A stretch of 64,000 nt of DNA from Styela clava (taxonomy: Eukaryota), in contig NC_135262.1 in the NCBI RefSeq assembly GCF_964204865.1, positions 14,570,001-14,634,000 on the forward strand. The letters are read 5' to 3'. A program made the position numbers. Below are positions 9,001 through 12,000 of this stretch, in pieces (position 1 is the stretch's first letter; every line of letters starts with the position of its first letter).

Positions 9001-12000
9001 GTTACTTTTGCAGTTATAATGTATGTCCCAGGCTTGGTAAAGAGATGTGATGTGTTGTATATTTTATATTCAGCTGCATCGAATGGAATTTTTAATTCCG
9101 ACAATTTGCTTTCAATAATTTTGAATGTACTATGTGACGACACTTCTTTTTCTGCAATCACGTTATCATTGATCGAAACTTTTACATCAAATGTTCCACT
9201 GCTTGTAATTTTATAAAAAACAAGTATTATCGCATGATTTGTAGTGAAAATCGGCAGTGATGACGTCACATACACGTCGTGTACTAGAGGAAAACTTTCA
9301 ACAGGTCCCATCTCCGACGTCACTTCCCCCAAACTGTTATTCGCTTTCACGAAAATATCGAACATTCCTTCAAACGGAACAGACATTTCTAAAATAACCT
9401 CCCTACATTCTTGAGGATTGCTGCAAAATGCACTCGTAGTTGCTACATCTCTGTTATCTTGTTTATTTTTTAGATTAGCCTTGATAAACGCAGGACTCCC
9501 TTCATATATGAAAACTGTAACAGAAAATGTTGTCGGTTCAAGGTCAATGTATTTTATTGGTTGAATGTTTAGAATGTTGAGTTTCTCACAGAAGCATATC
9601 TTAAAGGTGTAGTTGGTAGCTGAGACATCGTTTTCTAGGACGAGGAATGCGTAATGTGCACCTGGCCCTAGTTTGTCCTGGAGTTCAATTGGAAATTGAA
9701 ATACCATGTGTATGTTGGAACGATACTGTAGAAGTTCTTCACTGTAACTAATTTTTTTAGTAAGCACATACTCACTAAGCTCAGGAAAATATAGATGATA
9801 TGTCACAGTGTAAAGGAACGGCAGATCAACAGTTAGGTTGAAGTTGTTTGTATTTGACATGCAACGTTGCAATTTCAACTTGTTTCCCAGTAAAATACTG
9901 CTGTTTACTAAATTATCGTAGACTACAAAGGTTGGATTAGCATCTATGAATCCAATGTATTTATTCTCATTCAAATAGGTCATTTGACATTGAATGAGAC
10001 ATTGCTTTTTGCCAGATTCCATAAAAAATAATTCGACAATATATGATTCCTTGGATATTTGAAATTTTTTTTTTTGATGATCCACTTGCAGAAGACAGTC
10101 ACATTCAATTTCTTCAGGAATGCTTTGAATGTAAACTTTCATATATTGCTTCTTCCCGGCAATGCCAAACTCTTTGAAAATTGTGCTTATATCTGACAAA
10201 GGAATTATGAGCTTGCAAACAGACAGTAACCTCTAAATTCATCCTACGTATTTCTGATCATATCAACACCATTCCAAATGTAATAATAGAATTTTCACGT
10301 TCACGTGAATGTTTGTTTTGTATAGATATATTGAGGCCGCCTCCTCTGAGTGCAAATAATACATTTTAGTGACCAATAGAATTCAAGAAAATTACACCGA
10401 ATAAAATTGAAACAAAATCAGAGGCTTTTGCTGCCTATATATCTTGAAAATTCGTTTGAGTGGAACGAACAAGCGATAGGTAGGAATGTCCTACAGACCT
10501 TCGACGGGAAGATTTTAAATTTGAGTAGATATCCATGTTATGATACAATTGCAATAAATCATTGCTTTTCAAAGTCAAAGTTAAAATTATAAATCGTATC
10601 AGATTTTATTTAGCACTCATTTAGTGGACAGGACTTTTAATTAGTCTGAGCCCTGAGGTACTGAGTATACTGACTATGATATATGACATATTTTATTCAC
10701 TCACTCGGGAAGACGTAGAAAAAAGCAACGCCTCGTCCGCAAGTATTCTCTACGGCGTCTACGCCATTGAAGGTCAGGGAGAGTTTTTTCGTCGAATGTA
10801 AAATGTAAGCAGTTTCTTGTTCACAAAGACTTATAGGCAATAGACCATGATGATCTACAACAAGTTGAGCCTGTGCACATCTGTATTTAATCGGTTTTAT
10901 TAATTATTGAAAAATACCCAACTTAAAAAAATGTTAATGGAGATGGAACTCACGAGGGTATGTCAAAGTCCATGAATTTTATTATCACAGGTGACTGAAC
11001 TGATGCATTAAATATCCAAACAATTGACTGTCGTCCCGAGCACTGCGGATAATTAGGCGAATAGAGATGTCCAGAACCAACTGAAATTTTTTTTTCTGCA
11101 GATATATAAAATACTTAAAATACGTGATTGCTGAAGGGATGATTAGAAATACAGCAACGTTTTTGGTGATTATATTTATAGTTCCGTTCGCTATATGCCA
11201 ATGGAAAAACGCCGCCCTGGGAGACGATTCCTCCCACATTACATTCACCGCTTTAAAAGATCAAATAACATTAATGCTTCATCTTGTGGTGGATCTTGAA
11301 AAAGTTATTATAGAGTCTAAAGAGAGAAATAACGCAACGAATCAGCTTGAAATATCAATAATTCATTCGAATGGAGATGTATTTAACGGTATGTTGCTTT
11401 CAGTATTCTGAGTACTATACGTAGACCCAAATCTAATTTTTTGAACCAATTTAAAACTAGGCATAACAATAATCGGGCACACAAAGCTGTCTACATAAAA
11501 TTGTTTTAGATGAGATACAATATAATCCTAAAAATAGATTGGAACATGGATATGTAGCCGTCATTGCGGATTATTAAATGTACACTATTTGCGTAAAAAT
11601 ACCCGAGCTACATATGTGTAAAAGGCTACACCAGTATTTCACGAAGAAGATTTATATAAATGCTGTCCCCTTGCTCCAACGCGTGTTTCTGGAGAGTGAT
11701 AATCGTACACATTTTTGCATTAAGATTGCAACGAAATATTCAACAAGGGATACACGCAATCCGGTGTATATATGATTCAGATTTTTCATGGCTTTTATCA
11801 AATGCCTATATTTTGTGACATGCAGCTACCTGGAGTATTTTCGGGAAAAAGAGGCTGGATGACAATTCAAACAAGAATGAACGGAGAAGTCAATTTTGAT
11901 CGTAGCTGGAATGACTATTTACATGGTTTTGGGTTTCCAGATAGAGAGCATTGGATAGGTCTCCGAAATATTTTGAGAATTACGAAACAAAAGAGAGTCG

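What the first reader, a model, noticed from the sequence alone, without database searches (positions are those of the whole stretch)
10705..11080. Hidden CUB domain at the tip of the polycystin-like receptor
Two short exons, each with a gtgagt donor and missed by ORF calling, encode a recognisable CUB domain that splices in phase to the large exon. CUB domains recur in fertilisation proteins (spermadhesins, sea urchin EBR1). I do not recall CUB being described for Ciona s-Themis, whose N-terminus is usually called a hypervariable region. It may be the allele-specific ligand-binding module, or show that the hypervariable region is a diverged CUB plus PKD array.
Basis: partly seen in the sequence, partly recalled or inferred. 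Interest (0 to 1): 0.75.

Follow-up and report, generated by a model that had tools for sequence, protein, structure and literature searches.

The report
CUB domain on Themis-like sperm receptor
Two small exons encode a diverged CUB domain at the outer tip of a sea-squirt (Styela) polycystin-like receptor, and the same unannotated domain opens the "hypervariable region" of the Ciona self-sterility receptor s-Themis-A.

Summary
On the minus strand, two short exons (11095/11080..10954 and 10880..10705), both with gtgagt donors, splice in phase to the large exon at 10192. A public gene model encoded by this window (P0005, 2444 aa) joins them exactly so, after a signal-peptide exon at 17643..17538.

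The window is Styela, probably S. clava, not Ciona.

Sequence evidence for CUB in the Styela protein is just under threshold. Pfam gives 20.0-20.8 bits against a cut-off of 21.4, over the first half of the domain only. Exon B alone matches nothing.

Fold and family evidence is strong:
- The AlphaFold2 model matches solved CUB domains: Foldseek E 3.7e-7, TM 0.70 to C1r CUB2.
- A profile of nine tunicate N-termini finds cubilin CUBs at E 7.8e-8.
- Ciona s-Themis-A and its paralogue carry the same module inside their roughly 300-residue variable N-terminus.

No paper I could search calls it CUB.

A fibrinogen-like gene lies in intron 1 on the opposite strand, 44 nt from the first CUB exon. Ligand binding by the CUB remains untested.

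The parts
17538..17643 (-). Exon 1 of the receptor gene (coding part). ATG at 17643-17641, then 35 codons plus 1 nt, donor gtacgt at 17537-17532. It encodes a hydrophobic signal-peptide-like N-terminus, MILVMPLSETIMLLSTVIAIISGIPSG...
   Evidence: tblastn of P0005 residues 1-35 at 100% identity; sequence read.
11096..17537 (-). Intron 1 (6.4 kb). It holds the oppositely oriented fibrinogen-like gene.
   Evidence: for the borders; for the nested gene.
10954..11095 (-). It encodes the first half of the CUB domain, EKKISVGSGHLYSPNYPQCSGRQSIVWIFNASVQSPVIIKFMDFDIP. Donor gtgagt.
   Evidence: Pfam CUB E 8.7e-4, 20.0 bits, profile 9-48/110.
10881..10953 (-). Intron 2, 73 nt, phase 2. It splits the CUB just before its third conserved cysteine.
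   Evidence: junction DIP-S-CAQ in P0005.
10705..10880 (-). It encodes the second half of the CUB domain, (S)CAQAQLVVDHHGLLPISLCEQ...CGRGVAFFYVFP(N). Donor gtgagt.
   Evidence: Alone it matches no family. It is assigned to the CUB by the model's strands at residues 87-139 and by the family alignment.
10193..10704 (-). Intron 3, 512 nt, phase 1.
   Evidence: junction VFP-N-IST in P0005.
8775..10192 (-). Exon 4, the large exon (1418 nt). It holds the rest of the variable ectodomain region, with one weak PKD-domain match near its end and the start of the REJ domain.
   Evidence: 25 relatives.
2..8518 (-). Downstream exons of the same gene: REJ, GPS, PLAT/LH2 and the first transmembrane segments. 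The gene runs off the window's start at residue 1963 of 2444, so the polycystin domain and PKD channel lie outside the window.
   Evidence: tblastn map; Pfam on P0005.
11139..11388 (+). Exon 1 of the nested fibrinogen-like gene. ATG at 11139, a signal-peptide-like start, 83 codons plus 1 nt, donor gtatgt. The ATG lies 44 nt from the start of the receptor's exon 2.
   Evidence: Sequence; ORF.
11725..12410 (+). Exon 2 of the nested gene: the fibrinogen C-terminal globular domain (FReD), through the stop codon.
   Evidence: Pfam Fibrinogen_C E 1.1e-38; acceptor read.

Best explanation
The two exons encode a genuine but strongly diverged CUB domain (about residues 36-142 of the gene model). It is the first folded module after the signal peptide of a Styela PKD1/PKDREJ-type receptor-channel with this order: CUB, a variable beta-rich region with one PKD-like domain, REJ, GPS, PLAT/LH2, polycystin domain, PKD channel.

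The gene has the locus design of the Ciona self-sterility genes s-Themis and v-Themis. A secreted fibrinogen-like gene sits in the receptor's first intron on the opposite strand, and its start codon is 44 nt from the first CUB exon.

The CUB module is ancestral to this tunicate receptor family. It is also present in Ciona s-Themis-A, where it forms the first third of what the literature calls the hypervariable region.

Inferred mechanism, not shown here:
- The CUB is the membrane-distal tip of the sperm receptor.
- Together with the variable region that follows it, the CUB forms the haplotype-specific surface that meets the fibrinogen-like protein on the egg coat.
- Tight physical linkage keeps matching receptor and ligand variants together.
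- Recognition is passed on through the GPS/PLAT/channel part, as the Ciona papers propose for s-Themis-B (Ca2+ influx on self recognition).

Shown here: the exons, their phases, their joining in a public model, the predicted CUB fold, homology to the Ciona proteins, and N-terminal variability.

Inferred: expression in sperm, binding to the fibrinogen-like protein, and any role in self-sterility in Styela.
For: Exon anatomy:
- Exon structure and phases.
- A public model makes the same joins.

Sequence evidence for CUB in the Styela protein:
- CUB is the top Pfam family for exon A alone (20.0 bits, E 8.7e-4).
- It is also the top family for the model's first 166 aa (20.8 bits, E 5e-4).

Fold evidence for the Styela protein:
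- AlphaFold2 on a 6-sequence alignment gives a beta sandwich at residues 34-139, pLDDT 67.5, pTM 0.62.
- Foldseek against the PDB gives 72 hits at E<=1e-3.
- 44 of the 46 rows listed are proteins I recognise as CUB-bearing.
- Single-domain CUB targets score TM 0.63-0.70: C1r CUB2 6f1d, MASP-1 CUB2 3pob/3pof, spermadhesins 1spp/1sfp, TSG-6 2wno.

Family evidence:
- A profile of nine tunicate N-termini against PDB sequences finds cubilin CUB5-8 at E 7.8e-8, MASP-1 at 8.9e-5 and PCPE-1 at 0.023.
- 4 of 6 relatives' N-terminal pieces have CUB as top Pfam family over profile positions 4-110, and 2 of 6 score above the gathering score (P0041 23.4 bits, P0043 21.8 bits).
- The Ciona s-Themis-A piece folds at pLDDT 82.6. 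All 44 Foldseek rows listed are CUB-bearing proteins.
- In the ESM Atlas, 22 of 30 nearest clusters carry CUB, best score 0.91.
- Cysteines at the canonical third and fourth CUB positions (C84, C102) and a family-specific C130 are invariant in the alignments.

Receptor and locus:
- Receptor architecture.
- Nested FReD gene.
- Ciona locus design: passages of PMC7018956.

Variability:
- Ciona pairs are 55-62% identical in the CUB, 48-56% in residues 126-300 and 87-90% after that.
- The Styela model compared with an older S. clava model is 37-54% identical at residues 251-350, rising to 100%.
Against: - The Styela match is below Pfam's gathering score (21.4). It covers only profile positions 8-61 of 110.
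- In the whole protein no CUB appears at E<=0.01.
- Exon B alone matches nothing in Pfam, in PDB sequences or in the ESM Atlas (best 0.76).
- Exon A alone against PDB sequences gives only Neto2 at E 1.4.
- The smaller 6-sequence profile gave a spurious top hit and PCPE-1 only at E 0.21.
- The Styela model has moderate confidence: five models at pLDDT 54.8-67.5.
- 2 of 6 relatives' N-termini (P0038, P0018) have no Pfam CUB match.
- The first canonical cysteine pair is absent. By my reading of the sequence, the acidic residues of Ca2+-binding CUBs are absent too.
- On function, the Ciona CUB is slightly less variable than the ~175 residues after it. The CUB need not carry the specificity.
- The CUB part of a second Styela haplotype was not available.
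Confidence: 0.78

Rival explanations
1. It is a true CUB, but it is not the specificity determinant. It serves as a structural cap, a secretion or folding aid, an oligomerisation module, or a haplotype-independent docking module for the egg coat. Allele specificity would lie in the variable region encoded by the large exon.
For: In both Ciona pairs the segment after the CUB (residues 126-300) is more divergent (48-56%) than the CUB (55-62%). The framework of the CUB (W, four Cys, hydrophobic strands) is conserved from Styela to Ciona and Clavelina. A stolidobranch sperm CUB (HrProacrosin CUB1) binds egg-coat vitellogenin fragments that are not described as polymorphic (passages of PMC9265791).
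Against: At 55-62% against about 88% for the rest of the protein, the CUB is still clearly inside the variable block. Its first exon lies 44 nt from the ligand gene's start codon, the tightest possible linkage.
Confidence: 0.35
2. The module is a CUB-like beta sandwich only by convergence, or is another jelly-roll domain. The SPNYP-type motif in exon A would then be a chance resemblance.
For: The Pfam score is sub-threshold and covers half the domain. Exon B is unrecognisable alone. Two non-CUB sandwiches appear low in the fold list, 5sv5 and 8u5b. For multi-domain targets such as neuropilin, the table does not say which domain was aligned.
Against: Relatives match the Pfam CUB profile end to end, and two pass the gathering score. 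The family profile finds cubilin and MASP CUBs by sequence alone. Single-domain CUB structures are matched at TM 0.63-0.70. The cysteines fall at the canonical third and fourth positions. The module is flanked by phase-1 introns, as is usual for shuffled extracellular modules (recalled general knowledge).
Confidence: 0.06
3. The joins are a gene-prediction artefact. The two exons would belong to another transcript, for example the 5' part of the fibrinogen-like gene's neighbourhood, or would be relics. The receptor would really start inside the large exon, as in the older Styela clava model P0004.
For: I saw no transcript data. The older model P0004 begins inside the large exon, and the paralogue models P0006/P0033 also lack the module.
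Against: - All three junctions have consensus signals and keep one frame.
- Exon 1 supplies the signal peptide that a receptor ectodomain needs.
- The full-length relatives whose models reach the N-terminus begin with the same module followed by the same region: five Ciona and one Clavelina (P0018). P0011 starts inside the module.
- P0004 starts at an internal Met with no signal peptide, the mark of a truncated model.
Confidence: 0.05

Closest known systems
Ciona s-Themis-A. I take it to be the database records named 'self-incompatibility-linked polycystic kidney disease protein-1A', P0042 and P0043. The equation of names is my inference.
   Same: - PKD1/PKDREJ-type receptor with REJ and PLAT/LH2 and a variable N-terminus of about 300 residues.
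- The papers place a fibrinogen-like partner gene in the first intron on the opposite strand (PMC7018956 passages).
- The N-terminal module matches Pfam CUB (18.8 and 21.8 bits) and folds as CUB.
- It is homologous to the Styela large exon through P0014 (E 2.5e-18).
   Different: - Only about 20% identity to the Styela CUB.
- No Pfam PKD_channel match in these Ciona records. The papers give s-Themis-A 5 TM segments, whereas the Styela model has the polycystin domain and PKD channel.
- The Styela CUB keeps the SPNYP-type motif.
- A role in self-sterility is shown genetically for Ciona and is unknown for Styela.
Ciona s-Themis-B / B2
   Same: The papers describe an 11-TM form with a C-terminal PKD channel plus HVR, REJ, GPS and LH2 (PMC7018956, PMC9265791, PMC8849226 passages). 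The Styela model has this C-terminal architecture.
   Different: The only channel-bearing Ciona relative I retrieved (P0044, 2623 aa) has a model that starts without the module. Whether the B types carry a CUB therefore stayed unchecked. In Ciona B the papers name two variable blocks, HVR1 and HVR2, flanking v-Themis-B. In Styela only the signal peptide lies upstream of the nested gene.
Canonical CUB domains (neuropilin a1/a2, C1r/C1s/MASP, PCPE-1, cubilin, TSG-6, spermadhesins)
   Same: Predicted fold. Profile-level sequence similarity. The G-x-I/L-x-SP-x-YP start, the W two strands later, and the third and fourth cysteines. A location in a secreted ectodomain.
   Different: The first cysteine pair is missing. 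A family-specific pair (C54, C130 in Styela numbering) is conserved instead. The acidic Ca2+-site residues are not visible, which is my reading of the sequence and was not tested structurally. I found no CUB joined to a REJ/GPS/PLAT receptor in the papers searched.
PKDREJ, sea-urchin suREJ and polycystin-1
   Same: REJ, GPS, PLAT/LH2 and TM core, with a sperm-receptor role for some members (passages).
   Different: Their N-terminal modules are described as WSC, PKD repeats, lectin or EGF modules (PMC4890752 passage for WSC/PKD; the rest recalled), not CUB. They have no nested ligand gene.
HrProacrosin CUB1 of Halocynthia roretzi
   Same: A CUB domain on a sperm protein of a stolidobranch ascidian that binds vitelline-coat proteins. 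A peptide from it blocks fertilisation (PMC9265791 passages).
   Different: It sits in the C-terminal propiece of a protease, not on a polycystin-like receptor. Its partner is a vitellogenin fragment, not a fibrinogen-like protein.

Membership tests
CUB domain (Pfam PF00431) | Match to the family profile at or above the curated score (21.4 bits) | tested here: inconclusive
   - Styela: 20.0 bits for exon A alone, 20.8 bits for the model's first 166 aa covering profile positions 8-61/110, and no match in the whole protein at E<=0.01.
- Relatives: 2 of 6 N-terminal pieces pass (23.4 and 21.8 bits), 2 of 6 fall below (18.8, 18.1) and 2 of 6 have no match.
CUB domain (Pfam PF00431) | A beta-sandwich fold of about 110 residues, superposable on solved CUB domains | tested here: met
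   This rests on predicted models only.
- Styela: pLDDT 67.5; Foldseek E 3.7e-7; TM 0.63-0.70 to single-domain CUBs.
- Ciona s-Themis-A: pLDDT 82.6; E 5.6e-6; TM 0.59-0.70 to single-domain CUBs.
CUB domain (Pfam PF00431) | Sequence-profile similarity to proteins with solved CUB structures | tested here: met
   The nine-sequence family profile finds cubilin CUB5-8 at E 7.8e-8, with a best single domain of 17.8 bits over profile 26-132 against CUB residues 3-114. It also finds MASP-1 at E 8.9e-5 and PCPE-1 at 0.023.
CUB domain (Pfam PF00431) | Four conserved cysteines forming two disulfides (most CUBs; some lack the first pair, which is recalled) | tested here: inconclusive
   The third and fourth positions are present and invariant (C84, C102). 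The first pair is absent. An extra conserved pair of positions (C54, C130) is present. Disulfide geometry could not be read because no model coordinates were available to scripts.
CUB domain (Pfam PF00431) | An extracellular module after a signal peptide, bounded by same-phase introns | tested here: met
   The exon 1 product is hydrophobic and signal-like. The module is bounded by phase-1 introns on both sides.
s-Themis-type self-sterility receptor (Ciona) | PKD1/PKDREJ-like core: REJ, GPS, LH2/PLAT and TM segments, with a PKD channel in the B types | tested here: met
   Pfam on P0005: REJ 4e-32, PLAT 8.4e-13, Polycystin_dom 1.1e-30, PKD_channel 4e-11, GPS weak at 0.006.
s-Themis-type self-sterility receptor (Ciona) | A fibrinogen-like partner gene inside the first intron, transcribed in the opposite direction | tested here: met
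   The FReD gene lies at 11139..12410 (+) inside intron 1, 17537..11096 (-). The criterion comes from PMC7018956 passages.
s-Themis-type self-sterility receptor (Ciona) | An N-terminal region that is hypervariable among haplotypes | tested here: inconclusive
   Only one other Styela sequence was available (P0004). Against it, identity is 70% over the large exon and rises to 100% downstream. P0004 lacks the CUB part, and whether it is an allele or a paralogue is unknown.
s-Themis-type self-sterility receptor (Ciona) | Sequence homology to the Ciona proteins | tested here: met
   The large exon matches Ciona P0014 at E 2.5e-18 and P0023 at 6.5e-10. P0014/P0036 is 60-61% identical to the records named self-incompatibility-linked PKD protein-1A.
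s-Themis-type self-sterility receptor (Ciona) | Testis or sperm expression, and genetic linkage to self-sterility | not testable with these tools
   No expression or cross data for Styela were available here.

The most novel reading that the evidence does not exclude
The CUB domain is the haplotype-specific docking head of an ancient ascidian self-recognition pair.
- It contacts the fibrinogen-like protein encoded 44 nt away in the same locus.
- The CUB/FReD pairing, with the ligand gene nested in the receptor's first intron, predates the split of phlebobranch (Ciona) and stolidobranch (Styela) ascidians.
- If so, Themis-type self-sterility is ancestral, not a Ciona peculiarity.
- A further speculation from recalled knowledge: the pair may descend from the CUB-protease / fibrinogen-domain lectin partnership of the complement lectin pathway.
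Probability: 0.2. Interest if true: 0.75.

Novelty: new member of a known kind. Interest (0 to 1): 0.5.

Why it matters
The papers I could search describe the recognition end of the ascidian self-sterility receptor only as a 'hypervariable region'. Giving its first ~110 residues a defined fold supplies domain boundaries for three kinds of work:
- expressing the piece;
- mapping allelic differences onto a structure;
- swapping it between haplotypes.

Together these make the question 'which part of s-Themis reads v-Themis?' directly testable.

The window also shows the Themis locus design in a stolidobranch. That design is a polycystin-like receptor with a fibrinogen-like gene in intron 1. In the review table I saw, s-Themis and v-Themis carry question marks in what appear to be the columns for the stolidobranch Halocynthia (PMC9265791).

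The domain is a known kind, the gene model is already public, and no function was shown here. The advance is therefore one of annotation and hypothesis, not a new kind of system.

Tried and rejected
Searches that gave nothing or little:
- Exon B alone gave no family in Pfam at E<=10, no PDB sequence at E<=10, and a best ESM Atlas score of 0.76 with no family.
- Exon A alone against PDB sequences gave one hit, Neto2, at E 1.4, which is not significant.
- Residues 28-145 of P0005 against the 5.8-billion-protein set (lengths 1344-4277 aa only) gave 2 proteins among 21 candidates: P0005 itself and a spider cubilin-like protein at E 7.
- The six-sequence profile A1 against the PDB gave, as best hit, a GPCR fusion at E 0.03 that aligns to the signal-peptide part, which I take as spurious. 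PCPE-1 came at E 0.21 and 0.31.
- The family profile of the large exon (A3, 12 sequences) against the PDB gave nothing at E<=1. The 'PKD array' idea therefore rests on one weak Pfam PKD match (21.5 bits against a cut-off of 23.5) and on bacterial PKD-repeat hits to residues 376-434 of the exon.
- I looked for a second copy of the receptor or of the FReD gene in the window and found none.
- There were no tRNA genes and no Rfam matches at gathering score.

Co-folding: the FReD exon with the CUB (collected) returned 'no answer'. The score was 0.00 against a mark of 0.34, and the controls were not run. This counts neither for nor against binding.

Rejected ideas:
- That the window is Ciona. The closest named proteins are Styela clava.
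- That the exons are unannotated. They are in a public model.

Not checked:
- Transcript evidence.
- The CUB exons of other Styela haplotypes.
- Where the CUB exons lie relative to v-Themis in Ciona genomes.
- The supplements of PMC7018956 (its Fig. S2 alignments) and the 2008 Science paper that first described the genes. I could not see either, so an earlier mention of CUB there cannot be excluded.
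Full report
**What is in the sequence.** The gene lies on the minus strand. Reading searches gives the following.
- Exon A ends at 10954 before gtgagt (10953-10948).
- A 73-nt intron follows it.
- Exon B runs 10880..10705 and ends before a second gtgagt (10704-10699).
- A 512-nt intron follows, and the large exon starts at 10192 after cag.
- The frames fit. Exon A opens in phase 1, the A/B junction splits a Ser codon (tc|a), and exon B closes in phase 1 (a|at = Asn). This runs into the 497-codon frame 8739..10232.
- The large exon ends at 8775 before gtaagt.
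- The window contains no N, and I took nothing in it for human.

**Independent confirmation of the joins.** I searched the spliced model exon by exon and left the joining step out.
- A search with the large exon alone (P0003) against 1.84 billion representatives returned 25 proteins at E<=1e-3.
- The best, P0005 (2444 aa), covers the query at its residues 143-619.
- The tool shows it without names, as it does for proteins the window itself encodes. It sits on a 20.3-Mb contig and has an isoform, P0030.
- Its N-terminus reads: signal-like peptide, EKKISV, then the exon A product, S, the exon B product, N, and the large exon product.
- tblastn places its first 35 residues at 17643..17539 at 100% identity. 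The sequence there shows the ATG and a gtacgt donor in phase 1.
Both acceptors keep the frame.
- I saw no transcript data, so the joins rest on this model and on the splice signals.

**Which organism.**
- The only hit in the named protein set was a Styela clava 'polycystic kidney disease protein 1-like 2' (P0004). It is 70% identical over the large exon and 92-100% identical in most downstream exons.
- A 30%-identical paralogue is also from Styela clava.
- The window is therefore Styela, probably S. clava, and not Ciona.

**Is it a CUB? Evidence from the Styela sequence alone.**
- Exon A alone has CUB as its only Pfam family: 20.0 bits, E 8.7e-4, profile 9-48/110, gathering score 21.4.
- Exon B alone has no family.
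- Against PDB sequences, exon A finds only Neto2 at E 1.4 and exon B finds nothing.
- The ESM Atlas gives exon B nothing, best score 0.76.
- The first 166 residues of the public model score 20.8 bits (E 5e-4), over profile positions 8-61 only.
- The whole protein shows no CUB at E<=0.01.
- By its own sequence the Styela domain is thus a near-threshold, half-length match. This explains why it is absent from the precomputed domain list.

**Is it a CUB? Evidence from fold and family.**
- I aligned the N-termini of P0005 and five relatives (A1).
- AlphaFold2 without templates gave a beta sandwich over residues 34-139, pLDDT 67.5 and pTM 0.62. The other four models scored 54.8-61.3.
- Foldseek against the PDB gave 72 matches at E<=1e-3.
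- Of the 46 rows listed, 44 are proteins I recognise as CUB-bearing. The other two are 5sv5 and 8u5b.
- Single-domain CUB structures matched at TM 0.63-0.70: C1r CUB2, MASP-1 CUB2, neuropilin-2 CUB1, spermadhesins and TSG-6.
- For multi-domain targets the table does not say which domain was aligned.
- A larger alignment of nine tunicate N-termini (A2) was used as a profile against PDB sequences. It found cubilin CUB5-8 at E 7.8e-8, MASP-1 at 8.9e-5 and PCPE-1 at 0.023.
- The smaller profile A1 had given only PCPE-1 at E 0.21, behind a spurious hit.
- In the alignments, the cysteines at the canonical third and fourth CUB positions (C84, C102 in Styela numbering) are invariant, as is C130. C54 is present in every sequence that covers it.
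- The canonical first pair is missing.
- I conclude that this is a real, diverged CUB.

**The same module in Ciona s-Themis-A.**
- My last search of the named protein set, with the Ciona relative P0036, returned 11 proteins.
- Two are named 'self-incompatibility-linked polycystic kidney disease protein-1A' (P0042, P0043). I take them to be s-Themis-A; this is inferred from the name, and one search found no paper using it.
- Also returned were a paralogue on the same contig (P0041) and a channel-bearing relative (P0044).
- Scanned as ~150-residue pieces, 4 of 6 relatives have CUB as top Pfam family over profile positions 4-110: P0041 23.4 bits, P0043 21.8, P0042 18.8 and P0036 18.1. P0038 and P0018 have none.
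- The P0042 piece folds at pLDDT 82.6. All 44 Foldseek rows listed are CUB-bearing proteins.
- In the ESM Atlas, 22 of its 30 nearest clusters carry CUB. The best score is 0.91, which the tool rates as a lead only.
- P0042 and P0043 are 62% identical in the CUB, 56% in residues 126-300 and 90% thereafter.
- P0041 and P0036 are 55%, 48% and 87% identical over the same three spans.
- The CUB therefore lies inside the variable block. It is slightly less variable than what follows it.
- These pairs may be alleles or orthologues from sibling Ciona species. I could not tell which.

**The surroundings.**
- Pfam finds REJ, weak GPS, PLAT, Polycystin_dom and PKD_channel in P0005.
- Intron 1 (17537..11096) holds a two-exon gene on the plus strand.
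- Its exon 1 (11139..11388) has a signal-like start.
- Its exon 2 (11725..12410) matches Fibrinogen_C at E 1.1e-38.
- Its ATG is 44 nt from the start of CUB exon 2.

**Mechanism.**
- The anatomy is shown. The function is inferred by analogy with Ciona.
- In that reading, the CUB caps a sperm receptor whose variable N-terminus reads the fibrinogen-like egg-coat protein of the same haplotype.
- The receptor would signal through its polycystin part.
- Whether the CUB itself or the following region carries the specificity is open.

**Literature.** I saw passages only, not whole texts.
- PMC7018956, PMC9265791 and PMC8849226 list HVR, REJ, GPS, LH2 and TM/channel for s-Themis, with no CUB.
- PMC9265791 mentions CUB only for EBR1, ovochymase and proacrosin.
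- In PMC12562240 and PMC3342096 the term 'cub' matched only 'cubic' and journal DOIs.
- Other searches were run:
  - one search found 7 papers with both Themis names;
  - one search found 16 papers with Themis, CUB and Ciona;
  - searched Styela plus Themis and found 5 papers, of which I read passages of PMC7344649 and PMC9265791 only, and those did not report a Themis locus in Styela;
  - searched CUB domain plus REJ plus polycystin and found 5 papers. Of these I read passages of PMC4890752 and PMC9265791, and neither joins the two domains in one protein. For the other three I saw only the search listing.
- The 2008 Science paper and all supplements were out of reach.

**Verdict.** It is a newly recognised feature of a known receptor family, seen here in a new (Styela) member. 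Binding was not shown.

Noticed in passing
window 11139..12410 (+), inside intron 1 of the receptor gene: A two-exon secreted fibrinogen-like gene (Fibrinogen_C E 1.1e-38) is nested in the receptor's first intron on the opposite strand. Its ATG is 44 nt from the first CUB exon, so its promoter or 5' UTR probably overlaps the CUB exons. This is the Ciona s-/v-Themis locus design, found here in a stolidobranch.
   Followed up: partly
They are separated by a run of nine A. Alternative use would add or drop EKKIS just before the CUB.
   Followed up: no
window 8273..10192 (-) compared with protein P0004: An older Styela clava model (P0004) is 70% identical over the large exon. Over the next three exons it is 76-81% identical, and further downstream mostly 86-100%. 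This is a gradient like a hypervariable N-terminus. Whether P0004 is an allele or a paralogue is unknown.
   Followed up: partly
Ciona proteins P0041/P0036 compared with P0042/P0043 (not in the window): Ciona has a second s-Themis-A-like gene. P0041 lies on a contig of the same recorded length as the one holding P0043. It has its own ~300-residue variable N-terminus, 48-55% identical between the two versions against 87% for the rest. I did not find it named in the papers searched.
   Followed up: partly
window 48926..49204 (+): An open frame matches the Pfam Ephrin domain (E 9.8e-8, 32.5 bits). It is probably an exon of an ephrin gene unrelated to the finding.
   Followed up: partly
window about 13090..13730, inside intron 1: Several copies of a short G+C-rich motif (ggcccgcg-type, partly palindromic) stand out from the A+T-rich intron. 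They may be remains of a small mobile element.
   Followed up: no
proteins P0005 and P0030 from residue 2437 (beyond the window's start): The two public isoforms differ only at the C-terminus. The longer one continues through more of the channel region.
   Followed up: no
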